Positions 3,401-61,600 of a stretch of DNA of 64,000 nucleotides are shown here, piece by piece; within the stretch, counting starts at the first letter, position 1, and each line of letters starts with the position of its first letter. The position numbers and the translations under genes were made by a program. The DNA comes from Diadema antillarum (taxonomy: Eukaryota): positions 186,001-250,000 of the forward strand of contig NW_027271183.1 in the NCBI RefSeq assembly GCF_040938485.1, in the 5' to 3' direction. The notes below the pieces were generated by a model. That model had not been told where the DNA came from, ran no database searches, and worked only from the letters and a program-made list of their open reading frames with translations.

Positions 3401-6400
3401 GATCAAACTTCATTGCAATATTGTGACTGTACATGTATGTGTATGGCTGAGTGAAGACCAAGCAGTTATTAATATATTGAATTTATCATTCTTTTATCAT
3501 CCTCCAGGACTCTTTTAGCCATGGCAGGAGAAGACTATGCCATCATTGCATCCGACACCAGACTTAGTGAAGGCTTTGCAATACACACACGAGACAGCCC
3601 AAAGACGTACCAACTGTAAGTTTCAAGATTTCAAAGCCTAATTACAACTTCTATTCTTGCCATTGTTTTCCCAGGGATATCAAACCATTCACACTGATTG
3701 ACATGATAAAGGAAATGCGATTTGTAACTTTCAAGGGAAAAATTGAAAATGTGAGATTCATGCTGAAGAAACAACGTACAGTATGAATGACTACATAGTT
3801 GTTGGTGAATATGATACATGCCTAGAGGAAGAGGAATGCGTGGACATGCTTTGGTTGGGAAACTCTGCATTTTATGTGAAAGAGTGTCTCTATCCAGAAA
3901 ATATGATTTGAAACTGCATAGCTGCTGAGTTGCAGTATGTGTGCAGTGATAACATATTGAGTAAATACTGCTCGAAATTTCCATGTCAAGGAAAATCAAG
4001 AGTCTGCTGCAAAGACTATTGGTTTGTTTCTTTCTCGATTAAGTGTATGGTCATTTCGATGTACGTACAAATTACACTCATCAAGTTAAGTGATATTGAG
4101 ATATTTTAAGTAGTGACATGTGAAATGTGTTTTTCTTACTACAGAACTGATGCAACAGTGCTTGGCTGTGCAGGTTTTCATGGAGATGTTTTGACATTGA
4201 CAAAAGTCCTTGGTGCAAGGCTGAAGGTAAATGGACGATACTTGTTTTGTTTGTTTTCTTTCTTTTTTATACCCCCGCCAAACGAAGTTTGAAGGGGGTA
4301 TATAGGAATCAGCGGACGGTCGGTCGGGCGGTCGGTCGGGCGGTCGGGCGGTCGGTCGGGCGGTCGGTCCGTTGCAAATCTTGCGTCGCGAACTACTTCC
4401 TCAGTTTTCAACCGATTCCCATAAAACTTGGCACAGATGTGTGCCTTGGGTTGTAGATGTGCAAGACGTATTTTTTGACAGTACCCAAAAGTACGTTGCC
4501 ATGGTAACGGCATATTATGGGCAAAAATGGGTACAAATCTTGCGTCGCGAACTACTTCCTCAGTTTTCAACCGATTCCCATAAAACTGGGCACAGATGTG
4601 TGCCTTGGGTTGTAGATGTGCAAGACATATTTTTTGACAGTACCCAAAAGTACGTTGCCATGGTAACGGCATATTATGGGCAAAAATGGGTACAAATCTT
4701 GCGTCGCGAACTCCTCCCACAGTTTTTGATCAATTTTTATGAAATTAGGTACAGATGTTCATCTGAATATGTTAATGTGCAAGACACATATTTCCGCAGT
4801 GACAAAAAGTGCGTTGCCATGGTAACGGCATGTTATTGGTAAAATATAGGGCAAAATGCTTCATGGCAAAACTGCTTCATCAGTGTTCTTCCAATTCTCA
4901 TGGAATTCATATTGAATGTTTGTCTTAGGATATAGGTCAGCATGACACATTTCTTGACAGTGACAAAAAGTATGTTGCCATGGTAACAGCTCACATATTA
5001 TGAGCCAAAATGATGGAAAATTTTGTGTTGCAAACAACTTCCTCAGTTTTTGCCCAATTTCCATGAAACTTGGTACAGACATGTGCCTTTGGTTGTAGAT
5101 GTGCAAAACGCATTTTTCGACAGTACCCGAAAGTACGTTGCCATGGTAACGGCATATTAATGGCAGAAGATCAAGGAAAGATCTTGCGGATTTAACTACT
5201 TCCTCAGTTTTTTGACCAAAGCTTATCAAATGTTGTTTTGACCAAAGCTTATGAAATGATGTTTGACGGGGGTATAACCAGTCGCTGTAGCGACATTTCT
5301 AGTTTTATAGAAGAAATTGATGTTCAGTACAGAAGAGCATTAATTGTTTTTAAGGTCTGTAAGACGTGTGGTTCTCAGTATTACTCAAAAAGGGCAAACA
5401 GTTTTTGTATTATGCAATATGTGCCCCTTGTATGCTGGTAAAACCATTGTCTCTTGAGTTAGACATACTGGAATATACAGAATATCAGAATTTTGTAAAT
5501 ATTAACGTACAAAGTTTGAGCATAAATACTGTGCACTACTGTTATAACAAATACAGGTATAACAAAATTCCAGTTACAACGAAGTAAAAATTCAGACCAC
5601 AAGAATATCTGTGCTATGTTTTTCATAATTGTTTATTTGGTCCGTTATAAGGAAAGAAAACTGCCAGTCTGGAGGACTTCGTTATAAGGGAAGTCCACTG
5701 TATGTAGGTAAATTGGTAACACTAGCAAAAGATGAGCTTGCAAAGTGGAAAAAAGGAGAAATGAACTGTGTCAATGGTCAAATACAGAAGAATGTAAGTT
5801 TTCATAAAGTGTGTGTACTCTCACAATGTTTAGTAACGCTGGTTTGGAATGTGAACCACCTACTTCTGCAATATGATCTTGCCTTCTTTTTCTTTTGTAT
5901 CTGTCTCATCTTTTTTCCCCTCCTTTTCTTTTTGCGGTCTTCTTTTTTCCAAGATGTATGAGCACGAGCACCACAAGAAGATGAAGACGTCTGCCATTGC
6001 GGCCATGCTATCCACAATTCTCTACTACAGGAGGTTCTTCCCCTATTACACCTACAACATCCTGGCTGGCCTGGATGATGATGGTGAGATTCATGTCACC
6101 AGTATATCTTGTAAAGATAATTCCTTCCTTTTCCTGGTGATCTTTTTACACTTCTTGCGTGGAAAACCCCCAGAGTGTGTAATGTAGTACTGTAAAAGTG
6201 ATATTTTTGCGCGACTAATTTTCCGCGCTTGGCTGGATGAGAAGAGTTTCGCATGTTTTTAATTCTGCGGAATAAAGACATCAACTACTGGAACATATGG
6301 CATGCAAAAATATTCACGTGCTTTTATTTTCGCGCTAGTTTTTGATTGCACGAAATGTGCGCAAATTTCAACACCACGAAAATTAAAACTTTTACAGTAT

Positions 6401-13246: not shown

Positions 13247-15380
13247 ATGGCTGCTGCTCAGCCTTTAGGCAGGAATGTGCCGAACCAGGAAGAGTTTGGA
13301 GGATTAACTATCCAAGATGGGCCATCGATTCAAATATGACGTCGATGCCATAGTTCGTTAGTGTCGGAACCATGGACTACTTGCCACACACATGGACTGT
13401 GCTGCCTTTGGCCGACCATGTCAGAAAAGACCCTACAACAGGACAATTGATGGCGTCACTTGGCGTTGCCCATCCCAAGCCTGTTGTAAGACAGTGAACA
13501 TTTGTGAGGGAACTTTTTTTTTCGAGAAAAGCCACCTGCAACTCTGGTAGGTTTTTGCACTGTCATATATTTGGTCAACAAACTGTTGTTGGGTGAGAGG
13601 GCTACCTCAGGATGTCAAAATGAAGGAGATCGGAGTGTCCAACAGGACGACAGTTGACTAGATGCAGATTTCTTTCGTAATCTCTGAGTGCAACATTTTC
13701 AAAATCATCAACATCATATCGGAGGTCCGGGCGTCATGGTAGAGATCGATGGATCGCATTTCGCAAAATAAAAGAATAATGGGTTCTGGGCAGATACAAA
13801 CCTGCCCGCAAGGTAGGTTTTCTGGTCAAAGTCCAGCTGCGGGACGTGGCAACCTTGCTTCACCACATCCAACAATGGGTGGCCCCGGGGAGTGTCGTCT
13901 GGAAAGACATGTGGCGAGCGTACAACAATCTGCCAAACCTGCCCAGGCAGTATCAACACGAAGTGGTAAATCACAGTCTTAACTTCGTAGGCCTGAAACA
14001 CTGGAGTCACCACGAACAGAGTGGAATCAATGTGGTGGAGGGCTAAGGCGACGTTCAAGGCGCTGCAATGACAGACCAACCGGGAGATGATTGGGGATTA
14101 CCTGGCAGAGTTTATGTGGTCCTAGCACTTCTCAGAGAGTCCACTATTTCATCTGTGGACACAAATTGCCACGGACTTAGGCCCTGTCAATTAGTGTCGG
14201 AATCATGGACTACGTCCCACACACTTGGACTGTTCTGCATATGGCCATTTCAGAAAAGACCCTACAACAGGACAATGGATGGTGTCATGTGGCATTGCTC
14301 ATTCAAAGACTGTTGGAAGACAGTGAACATTTGTAAGGGAACTTTTTTTCGAAAAAAAGCCACCTGCAACTCTGGCAGGTTTTTGCTCTGTTATACATTA
14401 GTTCAACGAACTGTGGTTGGGCAAGAGGACTACCACAGGACGTCATAATGAAGGAGATCAGAGTGTCCAACAGGACGACAGCTGACTGGATGCAGTTCCT
14501 TCTTGATGTCTGCGTGCAATACTTTCAAAATCATCAACATCAAATCAGAGGTCCTGGCGTCGTGGTAGAGATCGATGGATTGCTATTCGCAAAGCGAAAG
14601 AATATTATTGGACACGCCACACCAGCAAAATGGGTTCTGGGCGGATAACAACCTGCCTGGAAGATAGTTTTTTTTGGTCGAAGTCAAGCTGCGGGACGCA
14701 GCAACCTTGTTTCACCACATCCAACAATGGGTGGCCATTGGCAGTGTCGGCTGGAGAGTCCACTATTTCATTCGTGGACACAAATTGCCACGGACTTGTA
14801 CCCCATCAATTAGTGTCGGAACCATGGACTACTAATTCCCACACACATGGACTGTCCTACCTGCGGCCATGTCAGAAAAGACCCTACAACAGGACAATTG
14901 ATGGTGTCACGTGGCGTTGCTCATCCAAAGCCTGTCAGAAGACAGTGAACATTTGTAAAGGAACAAGGCAAAAGAATATCGTCAGACACGCCACATCAGC
15001 AAAATGGGTTCTGGGCGGACAACAACACGCCCAGAAGATAGGTTTTCTGGTCGAAGTCCAGCTGCGGGATGCGGCAACCTTGTTTCACCACATCCAACAA
15101 TGGGTGGCCCCGCGCAGCGTCGTCTGGACAGACATGTGGCGAGTGTACAACAATCTGCCAAACCTGCCCAGGCAGTATCGACATGAAGTGGTAAATCACG
15201 GTCTTAACTTCATAGACCCTAAACACTGGAGTCACCACAAACAGAGTGGAATCAATGTGGTGGAGGGCTAAGGCGAAGTTCAAGGCACTGCAAGGATAGA
15301 CCAAACCGGTGATGATTGGGTATAACCTGGCAGAGTTTATGTGGTCCCAGCACTTCTCGGAGGGTCCACTTTTTCATCAT
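13247..15380 (+). pseudogene. Merlin (IS1595/ISXO2-like) transposase, three rearranged head-to-tail defective copies
   Basis: Motifs DGVTWRC..ACxKTVNI (zinc-binding), GGPGVxVEIDG..FAKRK, WVLGG, RDAATLFHHIQQWVAPGSVVWxDMWRAYNNL, HEVVNHSLNF and, after a frameshift, TGVTTNRVESMWWRAKAKFK. Multiple stops and frameshifts. Confidence 0.88.
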
Positions 15381-24271: not shown

Positions 24272-25589
24272 CTTTTACATACATGTACATACACTGTACA
24301 TGTACATCATGTACACATGCCTATTAAAGGGAATTCGCGCTTCGCGCTCATGATGTGCGCAGCGCACATTATTCACTTCAGATTTTTTCAGACTTTCTTT
24401 AAACCAGCTCTCACACCCCTGTTAACTGATATATATTTTGATAAACATCTGTGCCATGAAAGGTGTCTTGTGAAGCAATTTGTAGATAGAAATCTTTTAT
24501 ATTAGTGCTGTGGACAACTTATACCTCATATGCAACATGATCAAAGCAATTTGCAAAGACTTTTCAGAGACTGAACACTTAAGTGCTTGTGGAAATCAAC
24601 AATGTAAAGTTGGATGGTGCCCTTTACCTTGTTTAAGACAAACATGGCTTTGTAGTTGAATCCAAATCTTAGCTGCAGAGAAGTTCAAGTTCATGGATTC
24701 AGTGAGTAGTATTGTAAAAAATTACTTGTAGAACGTTCTGGTTGAAATCAAACCAGATTTTTTTGACTACACAACGACCACTTGCTACCCCTGAAAAGGG
24801 TAAATTAGCTCCCCCAAAGAAAGCGAGCACCACACAGTGAGTAATCACACTTTTATTGAAAAAAAAGGTATATTAAACGTGAAATTACAAGGAACCTTTT
24901 GCATATTTATAATACAACTGAAAGTATGTCGCAAACACATTTTTGATGGAATTTGGCAACTCGTCAATCTTCCAAGACTTTTAGTGTACGGTACTAATTA
25001 TATGAAGGGTAACTAAGCGGGTATCGGTCAATGAAAGAAGATATTCCCTCCCACCCGATGGAAGTTTTTTTGCATATTTTATTTTTTTCCTTTAACTGAA
25101 GTGAACTGTGATATGCTCCTCCCCCTCTCACAGGATCCACGTCCCTGCGTCAGATGTACGGTTGTGCATATTGCATCACTGCATTTTTAGGAAACACCTG
25201 GTCTGGAGAGCCTTGGTTTATATGGCCATTTGTTAAAGGGATGGATCAGTATTGCTGGAGATAAATATAGGCTTTTAACTTTCTGTGAGATAACAAGAAA
25301 CCACTTACGAAATAATACAGAGCATACATTATTCTAAGAGGAAATCAAAGTTTATAAGATGATAGTTGGTTTTGGAATGCCCGAGACATCCAAAAACACA
25401 GTAAAACAAAGTGATATAAATAAAAGGTGGGTACCATCTTTTATTAGGATTGCTCTGTTTTGGATATCTCAGCTATTTCAAAACCAGTTAACATCAAACA
25501 AAGGTCAAATCCCTCTTAATATGACATGCCCTTCCACATTTCATACGAGGTTTCTCACTATCTCACAAAAAAAGTTATAAACTTGAAGA

Positions 25590-26250
25590 CAGGTCTTAAC
25601 CAAAACCATGAAATCGAACGAAATATAGTATCATTCATCGCTAACGACCTCCAAGCTTGACTCCTGCAATGCTGTGCTTGGGAACCTACCGGAAATGGAG
25701 ATCAAGAGACTGCAACAGGTGCAGAATATAGCTGCCAGGATAGTAACCAAGGCCTGCAAGAAGCAGCACATCTCTGCTTTCAACTCGCCACTGGCTGCCA
25801 ATTCACCTTCGCATTTAGTTTAAGATTCTCCTCCTGGTTTTCAAGTCTCTAAATGGTAGCACACCTTCGTACATTTCTGAACTCAACAAAGATAATGCCC
25901 CAACCAGAAACCTTCGGTCAACTCGTCTGCACCTTTTCCAAACACCCAGGGTTAATACCAAGTGCTACGGGCAGCGTGCTTTCAGCACCTCAGCACCAAC
26001 ACTCTGGAATTCTCTTCCTCCCCAACTCCGAGATGCATCAACTGTCAACAGCTTTAAGAACTCACAAAAAACTTTAACTATTTTCGCACTGCTATACTCT
26101 GTAATTTTCTGTAGATTAAGTTTTGTTTGTTTATTTTGTTTGTTTACTTTTTCTGTTTATGCATGTTATTACATGTACTGTGAAACGCATAGAGACTTAT
26201 GCTTGTATTAAGCACTATAAAAGATGTTATTATCATTATCATTATTATTC
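25590..26250 (+). mobile_element. 3' end of an L2-clade LINE: RT C-terminus, 3' UTR and (ATT)n-like tail
   Basis: SKLDSCNAVL.NLP...IKRLQQVQNIAARIVT, HWLPI, FKILLLVFKSLNG.TPSYISEL and YGQRAFS.SAPTLWNSLP. The tail reads GTTATTATCATTATCATTATTATT. Confidence 0.9.
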
Positions 26251-26339
26251 CTTTTTTCTTATACATTGTCTTATACTTTAAGAAATTCCGAAAAAAAACA
26301 TCATCTTATTTGAATATAGCTCACTCCTAAAACGGACTC

Positions 26340-28123
26340 AATGTTGCGCGGCGAAATCAATTTGGCATAAAAGCTCATGTTACATGCAACTAAAACAGAG
26401 AACCACTAAAGAAGGACGACAGTACAGTGCGGGCCTGATTTTGAAAACTACAAATCTGGAATCATCTTCTACAATAATACCTGCCTACAGCAACAGCTGT
26501 CAAACCCAACTCTAGAAAAAAAAAACTTCATAAATTAGACATCCATCAAAGGGTAATTTTCACCTCTCTCATAAGGACAGAAAAAAATCTTCATCTTACA
26601 GATAACACAATTTAGCAGATAAAGTTTTGCTAGTTTGTTTTGTTTCTTTGTTTACTTTTTCTGTTCAAATGCATAAAGTTATGAATGTGAAGCACATAAA
26701 AACTAATGTTACATTCAAAATTACCTCACTACATGCAAAATGGCAACTGCGAAAGTTTACGTTCTTGAGAGGTTCGAACAGAGAACCACTAAAGAAGGAC
26801 GATGGTATAGTGCGGGCATGATTTTGGACGCTACAAATCCGAAATCATCTTCTACAATGATACCTGCCTACAGCAACAACTCTGGAACCAAGCTCCAGGA
26901 AAAACTGAATAAACTCCAGGTCAACCAACGAGTCATTTTCACCTCAGTGATTAAGCTCATGTTACATTCAAAATTACCTTACTACATGCAAAATGGCAAC
27001 TGCGAAAGTTTACGTTCTTGAGAGGTTCGAACAGAGAACCACGAAAGAAGGATGACGGTTTAGTACGGGCATGATTTTGGATGCTATGAATCCGGAATCA
27101 TCATCTACAATTCTACCAGCATACTACAACCATACAGGAACAAAACTAGAAGAAAAACTTCATCAAGTAGACATCCAGCAAATGGTGACTTTCAGTGCGG
27201 GCATTATTTTGGATACTATCAATCCAGAATCATCTTCAACAATGATACCTGCCTACAGCAACAACTCTGGAACCAAACTCCAGGAAAAACTGAATAAACT
27301 CCAGGTGAACCAACGAGTCATTTTCACCTCAGTGATTAAGCTCATGTTACATTCAAAATTACCTTACTACATGCAAAATGGCAACTGCGAAAGTTTACGT
27401 TCTTGAGAGGTTCAAACAGAGAACCACGAAAGAAGGATGATGGTACAGTACGGGCATGATTTTGGATGCTATGAATCCGGAATCATCATCTACAATTCTG
27501 CCAGCATACTACAATAATACAGGAACAAAACTAGAAGAAAAACTTCATCAAGTAGACATCCAGCAAATGGCGACTTTCAGTGCGGGCATTATTTTGGATA
27601 CTATCAATCCAGAATCATCTTCCACAATAATACCTGCCTACAGCAACAACTCCAGAACCAAACTCCAGGAAAAATTCCATAAATTAGACATCTATCAAAG
27701 CTACATTTTCATCTCTGTGATAAAGACAGAGAGTTTTGTTTATTTGATATGTTTTTTTTTTATACTTTTTTCTGTTTATGCATAATGTTATGAATGTGAA
27801 ACACATAGAAACTTAAGCTTGTATTATGCGCTATATAAGATATCATTAATATTATCATTATCATTATTACTCATTTTTTCTTAATACATTGTCTTATACT
27901 TCCTTAAAAAGAAAAGTCCCCCAAAAAGATAATCTCATTTGAATATCGCGCATTCTAAAAACGGACTCGTAATAATGCATACTACTAGTATACGTATATT
28001 ACTAATGTTGTGCGGCGGAATCAATTTGGCATTTATCAAGATACAAAAGCTCATGTTACATTAGAGATTACCTTATTATGTGCAAAATTGCAACTGCTAT
28101 TACAAAGTTTACGTTCTTGAGAG

Positions 28124-28162
<39 letters not shown>

Positions 28163-28600
28163 TATTTGGCATTTGCAAAACAATACAAGTGATAACAGAG
28201 AAACACAATAAACAGGTTTTAACAGAGAACCACAAAAGAAAGACAACAATACAGTGCAGGTATGACTTTGGATGACCGAAATCATCTTCTACAATTCTAC
28301 CGGCCTATTGCACCAACGCACAAACAAAACTAGAAGAAAAACTTCATCAAGTAGACATCCATCAAATGGTGACTTTCAGTGCGGGAATTATTTTGGATAC
28401 TACCAATCTGGAATCATCTTCCACAATAATACCTGCCTACAGCAACAACTCTGGAACCAAACTCCAGGAAAAACTCCATGAATTAGACATCCATCAAAGA
28501 GTGATTTTTCACCTCTGTGATTAGGAGGGAGAGGAGTCTTTGTCTTAATGACAACTCAAAGGTATATACATATCAGCTATTCTCAGCATGTTCTTATTAC
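26340..28600 (+). repeat. Complex tandem array of a decayed ~85-aa OB-fold-like ORF interleaved with copies of the L2 3' UTR
   Basis: ATG units at 26740, 26993 and 27378 (periods 253 and 385 bp), with degenerate units near 26385 and 28087 and an internal 132-bp module duplicated. Confidence 0.8.
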
Positions 28601-29377
28601 AAATGAATCACAAATTATAAATCATCATGTCAGAAATTAAACAGAACAAGTCTGTAACAAATGTCACATGCTTTAGTATTATCAAAATACTAGACTAGGT
28701 CTATCCCACATTCATGAAAATTACCTTAAATATTGTGCGATATACAATTAATGTATTTTGATCAAAATTGGCAATAGCAAAGATTTTGTTATTTTCAGCT
28801 TATTTAAACATAATTTGAACATCCTAAAACTCATCCTCTCTCACTTCAATGCCTACACTTGTTTGAATGCAACTCATAAACGTTGTTAGCACAGACAGCG
28901 CACTAACAGTACTGATAGCAATGATTTGACCTCACAGAAGCGTGCTGTTATTCGAAATCACTATAAGGGCTGTTAGCCTAACATTTCGAGGCCGCCCAGA
29001 AATAACAGTAGTGGTGATGTTTTAACAACACACTAACAGTGCCAGGGGCACCGATTGTGAAAATGTTAGTGAGTATCATTTTTTTGCGTGTGCTGTAACT
29101 TCAGTTGTCTCCTGTTTTTATACCATGTAGACATACTTCAAAATAGATTGACCTAGACCTCATCAAGAATGAAGGGGGTTGTGGGTGAGATAGATTTTGC
29201 TAATGATGACACGAGGAGACCAAGATATGATCCTTTTCAAGAAGAAAGTGGAAGTGATTTTTTTCCCCCCAGGAAATATCTGTGTTCCAAAGGTGTGCCC
29301 TTTTGACGTTTTAACAGTTAGGTCCTGCTCGGGAAAGAACACTACATATTGTACCCTAAATACAATCAATGCAACAT

Positions 29378-29575
29378 AAAGGACAGGACCATCTTCTGAT
29401 AGACATGCAGGTTGAGTGAATGCAGCAAGATAATACATCAGTGAAAGTTTGAGGAAAATCGAACAATCCGTTCAAAAGTTATGAATTTTTGAAGTTTCTG
29501 CTAAGTCACTGCTGGATGAGAAGACTACTACAGGTTGTGATGTCACATGTGTAGAACAATATAAAGAAAATAACA
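29378..29575. mobile_element. Single arm of the Kolobok-like MITE family seen complete at 39958 and 54207
   Basis: Shares GGTTGAGTGAATGCAGCAA...CATCAGTGAAAGTTTGAGGAAAAT...CAATCCGTTCAAAAGTTATGAATTTTTGAAG with those copies. Confidence 0.75.
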
Positions 29576-30877: not shown

Positions 30878-33800
30878 TCATGCTTTCCTCAGTGGGTAAA
30901 CCCTCATGTGTTCCCTCAGCTGCCCAATGGGAGTCTCCCAGTGCCGCTCAAAGTAGACATTCAGGAGCAGCTTCGACCTCGGCGCCATCTGTAAGACAGC
31001 CGGCACGTAGTGTGTGAGCAGCTCCCGCCTCTCGCTGCAAGGGTAATCACAGAGACATTCTAGCAGATTAATATTCTAACTAGGAAAAGCACTCTGAGAG
31101 CGCAAACCTCCACAAAGCAGTTAATTTCCATTCATACACACATACAATGTATATGCTGAAAATGGCTCTATTTCTCCATGATAAAAAATCCTTTGTAGTG
31201 TCTCCACCACTTGATGTGTGTGCCTCACTCAGTGATTGTACATGTACTGTATGTGCATCTAAAATACATTCAACTTGAATTTCTTTGTTTTTTGGCCCTT
31301 TTTACAATTGATACATAATCCTTCAAACAATTAAAAACAATTTCAGCATCCAGACAGTGATTTGAATCACTACTACATTCAATCATCTGTTCCTTGTGTC
31401 ATCAAGTTTTCCTGTAAATTACATCCAAATATATTTACAAATCTTTAGTTATTTTGCAAACAGACAGACAGACAATCAAACAAACCAACACCAGCAAAAA
31501 TTAACATAACCTCCTGGGCTGAGGTAATAACTAAGACTGTGCATTAGAAGAGTTCCGATAGCTCCCTTACTCAGTCCATAATGATTCACATTCTGGAACG
31601 GCTTACCGGTTCAACAACAACATATTAAAAAAACACACATTAAACACAATTTATATCGAACTGCAGTAAGGCTTACCTTCCCGACAGATTGATGGGGCCC
31701 AAAATGGCTCCCAAGGCACACATGGGCAATCTGGTTTGGACCGCTTCAAACCACTTCACAACCACCTCCCCCATAATGTTGATGGGCATGTCTAGGAGGG
31801 TGTGGTAGAAGTCGTGGACCTCCCGGTAACGCTGGAGAACATACGCTAGGTCTGGATCGTCGACGAAGCGCACAGGTGCTCTTGTATCAGCTGAGATGTT
31901 CTATGGAGAATTGATACAACGTAACATACATGTTCTGACTTGCTAAAGATCTGATTTTCATAAACTTAAAATATCTATTCCCGCTTCAAAGTATCAGGGC
32001 CATGTGCTATTAAAAGTGCACCTGTACTCAAACGTCATAAAAGATGTTTTAAGGGATATTTGTCATCATGTAGTGTATTACATATACTCCTTTTTTTTTT
32101 CAACAGTACGATACATTTAACTTCTTGCGAATGAGTCTCTCTTTTTAACTTACATACACACAAAAATGAAACCATCAATTTGAATTAAGTTTATCAAATG
32201 CAAACTACTACATTGAGACTGTGTGATGAAAGCCACAATTTTTTTGTTCAAAAATTTCAGTTGGGATTTCCTATTTAAATGACTGAAACAAAGAAACAAA
32301 GAAATAATGAAACTCACATTGGACACCATGAAATCATGATACATCTTTCCAAATGTGTCATCTGGTAGACCAGCCAGGTATTGCATATCAACAGTCTTGT
32401 GACTGATGCGAGGTCTCTCCCTGTGAGAGCAAGAAACAGAGAGAGAGAGAGAGAAATAGTGAGGGTGAATGGTATTAAAGATGGCACGGTGCACATTTTA
32501 AAGGCATTATTTACCATTTGCAGATGAAACAAAAACCCAGCTTAAGTGCTTCAAAATACATCTAAAATGTGAGTTAGGGATAGTAACAACCAATGTAAAA
32601 ATGTCAATCAGTATAATCAATGAACCATAGTTAATAATAGAATTGTTTCAATAATAAAACGTCTACAGTTATGGTTTATTGATAAAAATAGTGATATCTC
32701 TGTATATTTAGGCTTTATTGCAAAATTTCAATATGGCATGATGAACTTTTTGTGATACAAGTGACCTACAGAGTACTCATATGCATCAAATGTGATAACT
32801 CGAATATTTCTTTAAATCACTGCTCCCAAAGGTAAAACAATACCTTTAAGCCTTAGTAAGTGCATTCTATTGCTACCATGACAAAGTTAAAACCCCACTC
32901 TAAACTGAGAAGTTCTGTCACATTCACATCTGAAGATGGTTTTTTAACATTAGAAATTGATTAATTATACTACATGACACAAAATATTCACTTGTTCTAA
33001 ACGATAAGTTAGTTGCACTACAAAAGAAATAAAAAATAAGTATTAGTAATAAAATCAGGTGATTTCAAGTTTATGTTAGATTTGCTAGAAGATTTTCATA
33101 CACATTGAGATGGGAAAAATCTGAAGAGCATCATGCTGATTAGTTTAATTTCACTTCAATCATGAATCGAACTTGATATGAAAAATAAAAATGAAGAGAT
33201 AAAATTTGAACATCAAATATACAAGCTTGACCTGTTTTAAACTTCAGCTTTCATTTTTTGGGACCACTGTTTGATCAATGCTTCAATCACGGCACTCACT
33301 CACATGGGCGTCACCAGGGGGGGTGCGTTGGGTGCGAACGCACCCCCCTTCAGCCTGAAAAAAAAAAACAAAAAAAAAAAACAACTTCAGTCTGCGAGCG
33401 ATCTCAACGCCGGACACTAAATGATTATTATTTTTTATCTATTGTTTTGTTTTTTTTTTTGAAATTTTACATCGGGGACAAAAAAAAAAAAAAAATCTTG
33501 GGCAAAAGCAATTCGCACCCCTGGTTCTGGCAACACTGATTTTATACATATCTACTAGTACAAGTGTATTCTATACAGTGTTGACGATATACATAGATTT
33601 TGACATCCTTCCCATACTTGGTCACTTCGACGCCACCTCGCTGGAAATACCTCCCCCAGTCATGAACATAAACCGACACCCCTGACTACCAGTTGCGGAT
33701 CCAGGGGGAGGGGCGCACCGGGCGTCCCCCCCCCCCCGCCCCCTCTTAATTTCCAAAGCGAAAAAGTATAGCTATACAAACGGCAGTTTTTGTACTGTAA

Positions 33801-54200: not shown

Positions 54201-54206
54201 TCTTAA

Positions 54207-54765
54207 AGGACAAGTTCACCTTCATGTACATAAGGATTGAGAGAATGCAGCAATATTAGTAGAACACATCAGTGAAAGTTTGAGGAAAATTGGACAATCC
54301 GTTCAAAAGTTACGAATATTTTAAGTATCTGCGCAGTCACTGCTGGAAGAGAAGACTACTACAGTGTATGATGTCACATGCGTACAACTATATAAGGAAA
54401 ATAAAAAGAGAATTTCATAAAACTTCACTTTTTGAATAAAGTGCACATTTCTTCGACTTACTACTGACGTATGTTAAGGGTAATATTATTTCCCCTGCCT
54501 TCAGAAAGAGAGAAGTCGAGTGTTCTTTTGAAATGCGAGAAAAATGGAAAAATGTTGAATTTTCATTATTCTTTCTTTATATCGTTGTACTCATGTGACA
54601 TCACAAGCTATAGTAGTCTTTTCATCCAGCCGTGACTGAGCATAAACTTAAAAAATTCATAACTTTTTAACGGATTGTCCGATTTTACTCAAACTCTCAC
54701 TGATGTGTTCTACTAATATTGCTGCATTCACTCAACCCACATGTCTATGAAGGTGAACTTGTCCT
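54207..54765. mobile_element. Kolobok-like MITE, 559 bp, TTAA TSD, opposite orientation to 39958-40516
   Basis: TTAA|AGGACAAGTTCACCTTCAT ... ATGAAGGTGAACTTGTCCT|TTAA; the central asymmetric part is the reverse complement of that in the first copy. Confidence 0.85.
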
Positions 54766-55367
54766 TTAACATAACAGTTAAGAAACAATGGTCCAAGAAA
54801 CTGGATTTTTTGTCGTTTTCTCGATGTTCATGGATTTTGAAAACACATCCTCACGTAAAATAGAACTTTCGCGAGCCGATGTGGCCCGCCATTTTTTTCG
54901 GAAAGTGGATGTTACCATCGTAAAAAATGAGAAAAACACGAGAAAGACATCAACAACACCGCCAGAATTGCAATCTTGTTTGCGGCCAATGCATGTGCGC
55001 CCGCAATTTTCATGTGCTTTCGCAATGGGAATTGGCGCTTACGCAATGTTCGCGAGACATGTGAAGGTGTTCAGCTAAAGATCGCGGAGCACGCGCGTAT
55101 TGCATAGGGATTGTACATCGTGCCGTAAGCAGAAATACTATGTCGCATATCGCCCTTATCGGCGAAAATTGTGCCGGGTTTTGCCCTGGTAAATCATGAA
55201 AACTGCGTTGGTCAATGGTAAATTTCTTTCGTGAAAACAATTGTGTTAATGAATAATCTTGTCTATGATGTATGAAATGGTTGAAAATACTTTGCCTGAT
55301 TTGTTTACAAGTTGGAAAAACCCTTAACAATGCTTAAACTGCCGCAAACGGGATATTTTACTCCATA

Positions 55368-55759: not shown

Positions 55760-58621
55760 TAGTTGGACACATGTTGATGTTTATTTTTTTTTACATAACT
55801 TTATATGTTATGCACATGTTTGGTTATTTCATCTCCCAGGGGTATGAGCCTCTTGATGAACGTGCGCTTTACGTGTATTGTGCGCTGATTGCGATACTGT
55901 ACTTTAAATGTTTACCTGTTTTACCTGCTCATCTCTGGTGATCTCCTGTGTGCTGTGTGCGACATGCTTGTGTTGCGTGTAGGTATGTACATGTATCAGT
56001 TTGTGTGTGCACGCATTCTAAATTGCTCATGCTGAATGCACTGGCACAGCAAGATACAAACGTAGATGGCTTTGTGTGTAACGAAAGTAAAAAAGCAAGT
56101 TACCCATTTTTCGAAGGCCTAAATTGCAGAAGCAAAATAGCATGCATGATTCGAACGCCTGCGCTGCCATCATTGTTTGACCCCATATGTCTATGCTTCG
56201 AAATCGCGACGTACTGCCGTGCGCCACCGATGAATGGGTTAGTGCGCCGCCCATGAATGGATTAGTGCGCGTGCCACGTGCGGACGAAACGCTGTGCTAG
56301 CAATTCAACGCATACACGTCGCGGTCGAACCATGTCGAATATCGCAAATTCTGGCACGGTGGCATGCAAAATATAGATAGCGGGTAAACGCACAAGTTAT
56401 CTCAGAAACTGCTGCCACCATCATTGTCGGTGTACACGCTGTACAGATTCAATGCAGATAAGCGGACTAGTAACTTCGAAACTTGGAATGAAACAAGTAT
56501 ATGTGTTGCTATGCAACTTTACTTACCAGTTACTTACCCGTTGAACTGCGTATGCGAGCTCACCTGGAAGGGTCGCGACAGTGATTTCTGGGGTCCGACG
56601 ATGTGGCCCACTGTTGTGCTCTTCGGAACAAGTGTGGAGGTAGTTGCATAGTTTGAATTTCGCACTTGATTTGGGCCATTTTTTATTCATGAATTTCAGG
56701 GAATTTATATTCGTAAGAGTGGTCTATTCATGGAAACGGTCGAATCAAGGGTAACATGCTTTATATTGAGTCTGCATGGAAGTCATCCCGTTGTCCATTT
56801 TCTGCCTTTTTTTCTCTCCTTACCTTCTCCTAATTCTCTGCTTTCCTAAGTACGCCATAGTATCTTGTGTTTGTAATACTAGTTAACTGATGATTTGCCA
56901 GTGTTAAAGACAACTCACCTGAGCAGACCATTCCATCTTCTGATTCCCTTCTCCCTGGCCCCTCTCATCTTGTACTTGGCTCACCCTGCTCTTTCCCCTT
57001 TTCCCACCCTTGCACTGATCACACGAATGATGAAAAAAAATGCAAACACCAAACCACTTCCTAACGGCAAATATGTGTCCACTTGCAAACAACAGCAAAT
57101 ATGTGTCTCTTGTAAGGTGAAGCAAAATGTTAAAAGATAATGATATGAAAAACAACATTGATAGCTAGGGGGAAACTTGACACCCATGCATGCCGACAGG
57201 CAAAGCCACAGGGCATAGGAATTTGCGCACACGTGTAAATTGCATGGATTTATAGGGGTTGGGAACAGGGTGTTAAAGTAATTGAAGCAGACTCATTTGT
57301 TTTCTGCTTGTAACAGACACCATGATTCCTTCATCAAATGTAAACTACATGTATTGTGTTCAACCGAGCAAGAAACACACACACAAGGCATGCCTTTTGC
57401 ACATTGGCACACACACTGACACACACACACACACACAGCTGGTATAAAACTATGGATTACACAGAATGTGGATCGTTGTGGCACAGTGACTTAATACGAT
57501 ACAGGGTATTAGAGAAACCAGAACTGTTACAAATTATGTTAACGAAACAAAGTAAAATGAAATTAATGCTTTCAAAATACATGCAAAAATTGTTTCCATA
57601 CTTACAGATGTGTGCGTCAAGACTTTGACTTTGGTATGCTTCAATTTACCAAGGATGTCCCTCGTATTTGTGACTGAGATGTGCATCACTTTCATTGTTT
57701 TGTCGGTCAAAAAAATTAACTGAGGGGTGCTTAAAAAACCACATATATGGTCATCCAAAAGAATGACCATGACGCACCCATGTCCGCAGATAGTAGGATG
57801 GGGCTTTACGTTGACAGGTGCATTATGCCTAATGCAGCCTAACAACTTTAATTTTTTAAAAAAAGGCAGTGTATGTCAGTCTGGGAAACTGTCTTTTGAG
57901 GGAGCTCCTGTTCATATGGATCCCTCCTCCTCATGAGCACCCCTGGAGTGCTCATGAGGCCCCCTGTTCACTTCTAATTCATGAATGTCACATCTGACAT
58001 GTAAATTGTCACAAGTTTGCACGAGATTTTTTGTTACTCACACATGTCCACTCTTGATGATGAAAAGAGAAAATTCTGTCTGTGCTTCTTGACAAAAATT
58101 GAGTTTTAATCAACTCATGTGCAGCAACCCACCGAAACATGGGCGCCAGCATGTTTCGCTCAATGCAGGGCTGCCATATCTATCGGCCTGATTCCAATTT
58201 TGGGGGCTTTTTTTTGCAGCTCTCACCTCTCCATGCACGATTCAGCCCCATGAAGGTGAAGTCTGACATCATTTTACAAATATTCATAGAGAGAAAAATA
58301 AAATCAGAACTAACCTGATCTTGTACATATATTCCAAATTACTATTCCACAATGAAACTGTTGAAAGAGTATGTGGGTACTCAAATTTGTCAGGAAACTA
58401 ATCACTTTGTAGGTATTACGGGTGCACTTTCTTCATGAATTGTGCCGTCCACTAGCCTTTTGCCGCTTTTCCTGCAATCGTCCTAGATGTACAATGTATA
58501 GGAAAACATCTATACATAGCCTGTAGAGGCACAATGCTCTCACTTTTCTCCAAAGAAAGAAGAGAAAACAACAAAACCAAGAATGTTACTCATTTCTTTT
58601 CCTGTGCAGACTTCAGGTTCC

Positions 58622-61600
58622 ATGAATGTAATCATGGCAGGAGCACAGCAAGTATTTGAGACGCAGCCCCAGCAGTCCAAGTTTGTCTACGTGTCGGACC
58701 GACACCCGAAGGACACCCTGGAGATGACGAACATACTGCGGAAACAGCGCGAACTCTGCGACGTTGTGATCAACGTCAACGACATGAAGATTTATGCCCA
58801 CCGGATAATTCTCTCAGCTTGCAGCCCGTACTTTCGTGCAATGTTCACGGGGGAACTGGCCGAGAGCAGGCAGACGGAGGTGACAATAAGGGACATTGAC
58901 GAGCGTGCCATGGAGGCACTCGTGGACTTTGCGTACACGTCCACCGTGACAGTGGAGGAGAGCAATGTACAGACTCTATTGCCGGCCGCATGCCTCCTGC
59001 AGCTGTCCGAGATCCAGGAGGCGTGCTGCGAATTTCTGAAGCGCCAACTCGATCCATCCAACTGTCTCGGCATCAGGGCCTTTGCCGACACGCATGCCTG
59101 CCGAGATCTGCTCAGGGTTGCAGACAAGTTCACCCAGCACAAATTTCTCCAGGTGCGTATGAATGTTATTCCCCTCTGCACGTAATATAGTGAACATGAA
59201 GTTTACAATGCGAAGTAGATTGTACTGAAAAACAGTGTGAAATAAATGGTAAACATTAGCACCTGATTGTTTGTCAGATCAAAGTATTTACCAGTGTTGA
59301 AGCACATGTTGACAATGAGGAATAGTTTCCAAATTATCAAAATGAGAGGTAATAAGACAGACATGTTTTTATCTAAAATAAACTTCAATCTTCTCATCTT
59401 GGTCAATATGATAGGTTTCTAGTAAGTGTCTGACAAATGCAGTGAAGAGTAGATTGCTGTATCTACAGTTGTCCTCTTTACACTTCAGTTTGCTATTCAC
59501 ACATGACAACACATTCCTAACAGTCCAATATACATCATGCCAAGTACAGGATATTGGTGTCTTTCACTGTCACCTTTGTAGATAAGCACCATACTTTAAA
59601 GGTCGAAACTGATCACAAGATGTTTCAGCTGTTGATACAAGGGGCCCGTTGCATAAAAGTTCAAATTATGGTAACTTTGCCATCCAGTGGTAACTACCAT
59701 TGTAACAATACTCAACAGCCAATCAAAATCAAGAATTCCATGGAAGTTACCATTGGATGGCAAAGTTACCATAATTGTAACTTTTATGCAACGGGCCCCA
59801 GATATTGTGCCAACTTTTGTGACCAGACTCAGCAAAGGATTTGAAATTGACAGCATGTGCAATGTACATTTTATTATCATTTTCTTTTTCCTGCATGGCA
59901 CGAAGGTGATGGAGAGTGAGGAGTTCATGCTCCTGCCAGTCAACCAACTCATGGAGATCATCTCCAGCGACGAGCTCAACGTCCACAGCGAGGAGCAAGT
60001 GTACAACGCCATCATCTCCTGGGTCAAGTACAGCATCCCAGACAGGAGGGCGCACCTAGCAGAGGTCTGTTTGTTTGTTTGTTTGTTTGTTTGTTTAATT
60101 GATTAAGCCACAGTAAGAGCTTGCAATTAGCAGGAGACTTTTTACAGTGAAATTTTTTTTTTTGAAGATTTTTAAAGATTTATTTAATATTTTTACAAGA
60201 ATAAAAGAAAGTAACAGAAGTTAGACACAAAAGTGTAAAACATCAAAACTTTGGAGAACAAACAAATTTTCAGGATAAATATAAAAACAATAGATAAAAT
60301 GAAACGTCAAAGTTATATGATGTTAGTAGATTGACAATTGTGTATTACAGACAAATATTATTTTTTACTTCATGAGGGAGATGTGTGGCTTATCCGGGTT
60401 TCATGTTCTTGGTAAACGTTTGCATATTGGCAGTCAAATGTTCCAAGGTAGGTTACGGAATAGCTTTGAAGAGAAGTATTCACTACATAGATATAGGTAC
60501 ACAGTTACATTTTGTTCAAGATTTTGAGCAAGGCAATTTGACTTTAGGTGCTACAAAGACTAACAAGATTGCTGGAAATATTTGAAACTACTTTGTTTTC
60601 TCAACTTGGCATAAATTCAAACTCTCAATCTTCAAATTGCTTATTATTATCATCATCAAATTAACCCATCTCTCCAGGTGTTACAACATGTAAGACTGCC
60701 GCTCCTCAACCCCAAATTTCTGGTGGGTACGGTCAGCTCGGACCTGCTGATCCGCAGCGACGAGGCCTGCAGAGACCTGGTGGATGAGGCCAAGAACTAC
60801 CTACTCCTTCCCCAGGAGAGACCTCTCATGCAGGGCCCCAGGACAAGGCCACGCAAGCCGATACGATGTGGAGAGGTGCTCTTCGCAGGTACTACAATTT
60901 AGTCCTTTAATACTTTGATGAGTCTTAGTTTGAAGATGTTGAAATATATTGTTATCAGCCTATATTTTAGACATATGATTTGAATTTGAAGATGTCAAAT
61001 GTATTGTAATGAACCTATTTTTAGACATATGAAAATTTGTATATAATGCACCTTCATGATAAAGATTACTCCCAACAGGTAATAAACTTACCAACCTTTG
61101 ACAGACATAGCAACAATAAATGAATCCATCTGGAGAGAGAGAAGATAATTTTTGTCAGTGCAAATGTAAACACTTTGATGGAGACTGTATTGAATAAGAA
61201 CAAATCTGTTTATTCCTTTATTCCCATCCCCCTACCCCCTCCCCCCCCCCCCCCCAAAAAAAAGAGGGAAAATAATAGTTTGAGAAACGAATAACCCAAG
61301 ATCAGAATGTTTGATCTTGAAAAGATAAGTGTGGTGCTGTTCAACTTTATTGTGGCAGCCAGAGTTATGTATTCAGACAGGACATCAAACTCAAGTTATA
61401 CTTCTGTACCTTCCGGATAATGCTTTACTAATCATGTGCTATTGTTGTCAGATGAATGATACGATGGCTTACTTTGCTAGCTAAACCCGTTTAATGTAGA
61501 GGACACTGCATGTGTGACTAGTCATTCAAAGCATCCCTTTGCATGTTTCTTGTTTTATTTTTTGTGTTTTCCAGTTGGCGGCTGGTGTAGCGGTGATGCC

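What the first reader, a model, noticed from the sequence alone, without database searches (positions are those of the whole stretch)
26120..28600. Tandem array of an unrecognised ~85-aa OB-fold-like gene with a signature of past protein-level selection
The consensus is MATAKVYVLERFEQRTTKEGRWYSAGMILDATNPKSSSTMIPAYSNNSGTKLQEKLNKLQVNQRVIFTSVI-RTEKNLHLTDNT, with the variant RRERSLCLNDNSKV near 28525-28563. The strand/turn pattern (V.VL...RT.K.G..Y...ILD.T ... L..L.V...V.F..V ... L.L.DNS) resembles RPA/SSB-type OB folds; this is an inference. Two 44-codon module types align without indels and differ at 9 synonymous codons (GAC/GAT, TCT/TCA, CCT/CCA, GCC/GCA, ACC/ACA, AAG/AAA, CTC/CTA, CTG/CTT, GTC/GTG) plus mostly conservative replacements, so they diverged as protein-coding paralogs. 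The units at 26993 and 27378 share one CGA-to-TGA stop at codon 21, so they duplicated after inactivation. Units are interleaved with copies of the neighbouring L2 3' UTR (26120-26250, about 26615-26705, about 27735-27870). The source could be a Helitron-, virus- or host-derived ssDNA-binding gene family.
Basis: partly seen in the sequence, partly recalled or inferred. Interest (0 to 1): 0.7.

Follow-up and report, generated by a model that had tools for sequence, protein, structure and literature searches.

The report
Decayed copies of a transposon exon
This is a broken, locally repeated first exon of a five-exon gene whose intact relatives elsewhere in the genome often sit beside rolling-circle transposons (Helentrons); its protein is predicted to fold like single-stranded-DNA-binding proteins, and this copy is most likely a dead transposon remnant.

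Summary
The array is real: 8 segments, the stated 9 synonymous codons and the shared TGA all check out. The unit is not a small stand-alone gene. It is exon 1 (first OB fold) of a five-exon, 264-codon gene that is intact at G000:C587, 10.5 kb from a 3,540-aa Helentron RepHel frame. A second, roughly 30%-identical version lies inside a ~45-kb Helentron found at three unlinked sites. AlphaFold gives an OB barrel (pLDDT 89.5; SSB/PriB/RPA matches), and the only database homologue is an unnamed sea-urchin multi-OB protein. The window keeps only upstream DNA, a LINE 3' fragment, exon-1 copies and 300 bp of intron 1. Exons 2-5 and RepHel were not found. Only 1 of 21 segments on two haplotypes is uninterrupted. 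dN/dS of 0.3-0.5 is real but most likely inherited from formerly functional templates. The gene is optional cargo: RepHel is near 9 of 23 loci, and 0 of 7 other Helentrons carry it. Verdict: a pseudo-exon array in a likely Helentron fossil, from a Pfam-undetected member of a known class.

The parts
24992..25263 (+). Remnants of the DNA upstream of the gene, colinear with the intact C587 locus (three pieces, 67-73% identical)
25233..25614 (.). High-copy palindromic (MITE-like) repeat, at the same place upstream of exon 1 as in C587 (77% over 25331-25614)
25640..26250 (+). 5'-truncated LINE 3' end with broken ORF2 C-terminus, 3'UTR and (TTA)n tail, inserted between two stretches that are adjacent in C587; the L2 label is recalled, no Pfam hit
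26252..26385 (+). Upstream/leader DNA of unit 0 (77-81% to C587)
26386..26612 (+). Unit A0: exon-1 copy lacking its first ~12 codons, with indels and a stop
26623..26704 (+). LINE 3'UTR copy 2
26740..27021 (+). Unit A1: the only open frame (93 aa): exon-1 codons 1-71 (59% identical to the C587 exon) plus read-through into the next leader; no splice donor
26993..27193 (+). Head plus B-type module 1, TGA at 27053-27055
27194..27340 (+). A2: headless exon-1 copy fused in frame to B1
27378..27578 (+). Head plus B-type module 2, TGA at 27438-27440 (second copy of the 385-bp duplication)
27579..27731 (+). A3: headless exon-1 copy fused in frame to B2
27732..27870 (+). LINE 3'UTR copy 3 with (TTA)n tail
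27872..28087 (+). Upstream/leader DNA of the last unit (70-75% to C587)
28088..28377 (+). Head without ATG, split by a (TTA)13-containing insertion of about 90 bp, then a degenerate B-type module
28378..28561 (+). A4: headless exon-1 copy with a frameshift, running to the natural exon end
28562..28873 (+). GT donor (28562-28563) and start of intron 1, 72% identical to C587; the homology stops here

Best explanation
The array is a set of broken tandem copies of exon 1 of a five-exon gene predicted to encode a multi-OB-fold, likely ssDNA-binding protein, lying in what is likely the fossil of a Helentron (HLE2 rolling-circle transposon). Shown: homology and colinearity with the intact C587 locus, open exon frames with GT-AG borders there, a RepHel next to that locus, and loss of exons 2-5 and RepHel here. 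Inferred: in active elements the protein would coat the displaced single strand during rolling-circle transposition as an optional helper. Inferred history: a LINE 3' end inserted upstream of exon 1; blocks of LINE tail, leader and exon 1 were then duplicated and partly deleted at short microhomologies; some segments (the B type above all) were likely copied from already diverged functional relatives, which explains the low dN/dS; the rest of the element was lost and the array now decays and changes structure between haplotypes.
For: Closest intact relatives (59% aa) have colinear non-coding flanks on both sides. The exon-1 donor after 'SK' is kept in paralogues only 33% identical. Five exons total 795 nt with GT-AG borders and match P0002 part by part. 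RepHel at C587 has OTU, Herpes_teg_N, DUF6570, Helitron_like_N, PIF1 and Exo_endo_phos. A second family lies in a ~45-kb block with RepHel that shares a sharp, palindromic end in unrelated flanks at 3 of 3 loci compared. OB fold predicted. 1 of 21 segments uninterrupted. No exon 3 on C295 or C36 among 17 genome hits; no RepHel in the window +/-10 kb or in 50 kb of C36. pN between units (0.13-0.16) is about the non-coding distance (0.12-0.20 between non-recent units) while pS is 0.27-0.37. RPA/Ssb-like OB genes upstream of RepHel in HLE2 are described in PMC11417382.
Against: The window itself has no RepHel and no Helentron end, so its Helentron origin rests on its relatives. RepHel was near only 9 of 23 loci with the gene; one whole subfamily (C142, C346, C34, C1234, C640) had none in 20-130 kb. 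0 of 7 other Helentrons carried the gene upstream. The ends of the C587 element were not delimited. Splicing and DNA binding are predicted only. Units are mosaic, which weakens tree-based dN/dS.
Confidence: 0.7

Rival explanations
1. The gene family is a host (or other non-Helitron) multi-OB gene family; Helentrons captured it twice, and the window is a segmental-duplication pseudogene of a host paralogue, not a Helentron fossil.
For: An open-frame copy at C142 has no RepHel in 130 kb. The abundant Helentron family lacks the gene, and in C364 it lies in a ~22-kb extra block. Orientation to RepHel differs between the two families. The window has no Helentron parts.
Against: The window's nearest relatives lie beside RepHel at C587, C701 and C955. 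Two divergent RepHel lineages both have the gene upstream. Copies are dispersed, multi-copy and often broken, as for mobile DNA. Only one database homologue turned up, unlike a conserved host gene.
Confidence: 0.2
2. The array was or is itself functional: exon 1 was amplified under selection, and the 93-aa frame makes a single-OB protein, or the array makes silencing RNAs against the Helentron gene.
For: omega 0.33, 0.40 and 0.47 among units, p 3e-5 to 0.006; neutral simulations reach the observed ratio in 0-8 of 100 runs. The 93-aa frame models as an OB fold (pLDDT 75). Exon 1 is duplicated in tandem at six independent loci or allele pairs, while none of 17 exon-3 hits is repeated at a locus.
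Against: No intact counterpart on the other haplotype. The model's tail is unrelated leader sequence at pLDDT 47-60 and the fold is driven by the alignment. pN is about the non-coding distance. Exon 1 was searched with four queries, exon 3 with one.
Confidence: 0.08
3. Assembly artefact or chance translation of a satellite.
For: Tandem, AT-rich region; much of it had no cover by the one public run at 95% likeness.
Against: Units are 77-95% identical, not collapsed copies; a second contig holds a different array in the same flanks; an independent contig bridges a junction; intact homologues exist.
Confidence: 0.02

Closest known systems
RPA-like / Ssb-like_OB accessory genes of Helentrons (HLE2), PMC11417382, PMC4067079, PMC4683698
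   Same: OB-fold gene upstream of a RepHel with EN, DUF6570, OTU and Herpes_teg_N; optional and often fragmentary.
   Different: Below every Pfam cut-off (best REPA_OB_2 18.3 bits against 27, for the homologue P0002); five exons over 14 kb, where the mite Helentron RPA is an intronless 358-aa RPA70-like frame; here beside a Herpes_teg_N/EN-type RepHel, whereas PMC11417382 reports RPA limited to HLE2 subgroup a and those domains enriched in subgroup b (subgroup not tested here).
Lytechinus pictus LOC135156006 (XP_063962894.1, 290 aa, uncharacterised)
   Same: Matches exon 1 (hhalign 98.3%, residues 6-109), exon 3 (98.9%, residues 157-220) and exons 2 and 5.
   Different: About 30% identity; its genomic context was not examined; the window holds only the first domain.
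SSB / PriB / RPA / Teb1 / CST OB folds (3koj, 2ccz, 3lgj, 3u4z, 4gnx)
   Same: Same barrel: best Z 9.2, rmsd 2.4 A over 76 residues (exon 1); Z 10.8, rmsd 2.5 A over 86 (window frame).
   Different: 5-21% identity, no Foldseek E under 0.001; the fold does not single out a family or show binding.
Tandem repeats in non-autonomous or truncated Helentrons (PMC7492417, PMC12628747)
   Same: Tandemised internal Helentron-linked DNA, variable between copies.
   Different: Here the monomer is a coding exon with its leader and a LINE tail, irregular and low-copy, with no element ends found around it.

Membership tests
Helentron (HLE2), intact relative at C587 | Rep (HUH) plus PIF1 helicase in one frame | tested here: met
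   3,540-aa frame; Helitron_like_N E 1e-34, PIF1 E 5e-24
Helentron (HLE2), intact relative at C587 | C-terminal AP endonuclease and DUF6570 marker | tested here: met
   Exo_endo_phos E 9.5e-6, over cut-off; DUF6570 E 8e-19; markers as given in PMC11417382
Helentron (HLE2), C750/C364/C920 family | Gene moves inside one element with a defined, palindromic end | tested here: met
   Shared ~45-kb block, common end in unrelated flanks at 3 of 3 loci compared; the end motif occurs 440 times, reversed control 0
Helentron (HLE2), intact relative at C587 | Element ends enclosing both the OB gene and RepHel; TT target | tested here: inconclusive
   A like end lies at C587:2703600 but may belong to a separate 2-kb element; the 2687008 boundary is another repeat's insertion
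Autonomous Helentron, window locus itself | RepHel or element ends at the locus | tested here: not met
   No tblastn hit in the window +/-10 kb or in C36:740-790 kb; end motif absent. It can only be a remnant
OB-fold nucleic-acid-binding domains | Five-stranded barrel with a helix between strands 3 and 4 | tested here: met
   Predicted: pLDDT 89.5, E-E-E-H-E-E; SSB/PriB fill the top ranks; Atlas OB/RPA clusters at 0.92-0.95 for P0002
RPA1 / REPA_OB_2 / OB_Ssb-like Pfam families | Score above the curated cut-off | tested here: not met
   No OB family hit for the window units or exon 1; P0002 REPA_OB_2 18.3 against 27 bits; 1 of 8 exon-3 sequences tRNA_anti-codon E 0.006
ssDNA-binding proteins | Binds single-stranded DNA | not testable with these tools
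   Needs a binding assay
Spliced, expressed gene (C587 copy) | Transcript joining exons 1-5 | tested here: inconclusive
   GT-AG borders and open frames; no RNA holder listed; the one run laid covers introns and showed no exon-exon joint among the rows shown
L2-clade LINE | 3'-anchored, 5'-truncated dispersed copies with a simple-repeat tail | tested here: met
   43 matches, most ending at query position ~590-610; tails
L2-clade LINE | Reverse-transcriptase sequence placing it in the L2 clade | tested here: inconclusive
   No Pfam hit on two frames; the L2 label is recalled from the translated motifs

The most novel reading that the evidence does not exclude
A Pfam-invisible, intron-rich SSB-like gene is an old optional passenger of giant (45-50 kb) Helentrons, and its promoter plus exon 1 is a recurrent amplification hotspot (six independent loci or allele pairs). 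The amplified truncated OB domains or their RNAs could act as host-retained decoys or silencers of Helentron transposition, the window's array being one such decoy in decay.
Probability: 0.1. Interest if true: 0.7.

Novelty: new member of a known kind. Interest (0 to 1): 0.3.

Why it matters
The array itself is probably inert. Its value is as a pointer to an unannotated multi-OB gene family that Pfam, PDB sequence search and a 1.84-billion-protein HMMER scan all miss. Some Helentrons carry it and near-identical ones lack it (C364 against C53 and C50), which offers a natural test of whether Helitron-borne ssDNA-binding proteins help transposition. It also shows that low dN/dS in a repeat array can be inherited from transposon templates and need not mean host function.

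Tried and rejected
Sequence searches with exon 1 found nothing: protein collection, longer (0 of 97 candidates) and near length; 1.84-billion representatives (0 at E 0.001); PDB sequences; Pfam; phage records. The Atlas did not hold exon 1, so its result is for the homologue P0002 only. The viral structure library gave only weak phage SSB matches, none under E 0.001: no sign of a viral source. No RNA holder was listed; run X1 behaves like DNA and gave no splice joint among the rows shown. Alignment A4 was misaligned and not used. The 119-aa frame at C587:2678347 is conserved in C701 but had no Pfam hit and does not belong to the exon chain. The boundary at C587:2687008 looked like an element end but is a repeat insertion shared by C701 and C1354. 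No RepHel in the stretches fetched around C142, C346, C34, C1234, C640, C413, C840, C894, C137, C1099, C1354 and C837; C1867 and C793 end too soon to test. Three look-ups of earlier findings returned nothing. Five paper searches listed no description of this family; Repbase and subscription reviews were not searchable, and no supplements were read (HELIANO's domain tables may bear on novelty). No complex prediction was run.

Full report
Observation. The window is G000:C295:186001-250000 in a 1.75-Gb eukaryotic assembly. Between 26386 and 28561 lie 8 segments of one coding unit, with spacings of 132, 253 and 385 nt. The codon-21 TGA stands at 27053 and 27438. LINE 3'UTR copies interleave at 26120, 26623 and 27732. 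Only 26740-27021 is an open frame, and its last 22 codons are read-through into the next leader.

The unit is an exon. A genome search with the 71-codon unit gave 23 matches: 8 on C295, 11 on C36 and 4 stop-free single copies on C587, C1867, C701 and C955 at 59% identity. C36 shares the window's flanks at 88-99% and is most likely the other haplotype. In the intact copies the frame ends at AAG|GTATGT; the same donor follows 'SK' in paralogues only 33% identical and survives in the window at 28562. At C587 four more exons follow (2681605, 2682555, 2685677, 2686835), all with AG acceptors and GT donors, 795 nt in all, i.e. 264 codons and a stop. All five match the C701 copy at 82-93%, with dN/dS 0.18 for exons 1 and 3. 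Splicing itself was not observed.

What the protein is. Sequence searches with exon 1 were blank. A profile of exon 3 found one protein among 7,986 candidates scored: P0002, an uncharacterised 290-aa Lytechinus pictus protein. It matches exon 1 (hhalign 98.3%) and exon 3 (98.9%) and also exons 2 and 5. It has a sub-threshold REPA_OB_2 hit and falls among OB/RPA clusters in the Atlas. AlphaFold2 on exon 1 with 19 sequences gave pLDDT 89.5 and the order strand-strand-strand-helix-strand-strand. Top structural matches are SSB and PriB, with RPA, Teb1 and CST lower (best Z 9.2, rmsd 2.4 A, 76 residues; no Foldseek E under 0.001). The window's own 93-aa frame models similarly (pLDDT 75; Z 10.8, rmsd 2.5 A, 86 residues), its tail at low confidence. 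ssDNA binding is inferred from the fold and the context.

Context of intact copies. At C587 a 3,540-aa frame starts 10.5 kb upstream on the other strand. It has OTU, Herpes_teg_N, DUF6570, Helitron_like_N, PIF1 and Exo_endo_phos domains, the HLE2/Helentron signature of PMC11417382 (passages and section 22 read). C701 and C955 have the same arrangement in broken form. A second gene family (about 30% identical) lies upstream of, and co-oriented with, a divergent RepHel on C750, C364, C920 and C553. The ~45-kb block ends sharply at a palindromic motif in unrelated flanks at 3 of 3 loci compared; that motif occurs 440 times, its reversed control never. C159 and C498 have a Rep domain about 40 kb away by coordinates. 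Against an obligate link: RepHel was near 9 of 23 loci examined (7 by tblastn, 2 by coordinates; 10-130 kb looked at), with none for a third family. 0 of 7 other Helentrons had the gene in 20-40 kb upstream, and in C364 it lies in a ~22-kb block absent from close relatives on C53 and C50. The ends of the C587 element were not fixed.

What is left in the window. From 24992 to 28873 the window is colinear with C587's upstream DNA, exon 1 and the first 300 bp of intron 1, at 63-77% identity. A 610-bp LINE 3' end interrupts it at 25640-26250 (L2 label recalled). Exons 2-5 and RepHel were not found in the window +/-10 kb or in 50 kb of C36, and none of 17 genome-wide exon-3 hits is on either contig. 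C36 holds 13 segments in a different order, without the B type; 1 of 21 segments on the two haplotypes is uninterrupted from ATG to codon 71. Run X1 holds a further variant that bridges the 27578/27579 junction and has a joint skipping 26371-26695 (one contig, 20 letters on the short side).

Selection. A1 against B1: dN/dS 0.28, p 0.0017; neutral simulations with transition and CpG bias reached that synonymous share in 2-15 of 300 runs. Codon models gave omega 0.33 (7 window segments), 0.40 (5 A-type) and 0.47 (10 C36 segments), p 3e-5, 0.006 and 0.001. Left out were one gappy window segment and three head-only C36 segments; stops were masked; mosaicism violates the tree. Simulations on the trees reached the observed ratio in 0-8 of 100 runs. 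Pooled pN (0.13-0.16) resembles the distance between non-coding leaders (0.12-0.20 for 11 of 15 pairs; the other four are allelic or recent) and LINE tails (0.15-0.17), while pS is 0.27-0.37. The simplest reading, inferred, is neutral decay on top of older divergence under selection, part of it imported from sibling copies.

Mechanism. In an active element the protein would likely bind the displaced strand during rolling-circle transposition as an optional helper (inference; RPA-like genes of Helitrons are described in PMC4067079, PMC4683698 and PMC6431247, passages read). In this copy a LINE inserted upstream, and blocks of tail, leader and exon 1 were duplicated and trimmed; junctions show 3-6-nt microhomologies (my reading). 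Tandemised Helentron interiors are known (PMC7492417, abstract; PMC12628747, passages). Exon 1 is also duplicated in tandem on C1354/C837, C34, C640, C1099 and C649, while exon 3 is not repeated in 17 hits. The searches were unequal (four queries against one), so this is a lead.

Verdict. A real but ordinary-in-kind fossil: pseudo-exon copies from a likely Helentron accessory OB gene (0.7), a host gene captured by Helentrons (0.2), a functional array (0.08). The family is not in Pfam and was not listed in five paper searches. Interest 0.3.

Noticed in passing
G000 genome-wide: 146 Helitron_like_N matches among 150 candidates scored, many in open frames of 3,300-3,800 aa and several in pairs 26-44 kb apart on one contig (C53, C755, C887, C1355, C1623): a young, possibly tandem, giant Helentron family with a shared palindromic end (440 matches).
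   Followed up: partly
L094 / G000:C142:1761385-1766000 and C164: Open-frame copy of the OB gene with no RepHel in 130 kb: candidate host-retained copy.
   Followed up: partly
G000:C1099:1268350-1268929, C640:1973966-1974625, C34:2343506-2347917, C649:80763-84619, C1354:53777-57093: Independent tandem duplications that include exon 1 of the same gene family.
   Followed up: partly
L025:5348-5704 (C587:2678347-2678703): 119-aa open frame in intron 1, conserved in C701, no Pfam hit.
   Followed up: partly
window 14507-15271 (+): 254-aa frame with a DDE_Tnp_IS1595 (ISXO2-like) transposase domain, E 2.5e-6.
   Followed up: no
window 58520-59185 (+): BTB plus BACK domain exon, likely of a kelch-type host gene.
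   Followed up: no
window 39953-40521, 54203-54769, 29377-29573: Copies of a ~570-bp palindromic MITE-like repeat that also recurs in most fetched loci.
   Followed up: no
window 4375-5159 and 33739-35584: Tandem arrays of 159-bp and 333/496-bp period.
   Followed up: no
window 28125-28215: Insertion of about 90 bp with (TTA)13 in a unit's head, flanked by a possible 5-bp target duplication; perhaps a reversed retroelement tail.
   Followed up: no
G000:C701:229566-230900 (+): 445-aa frame that reads like the seven-transmembrane part of an LGR-type receptor (label recalled).
   Followed up: no
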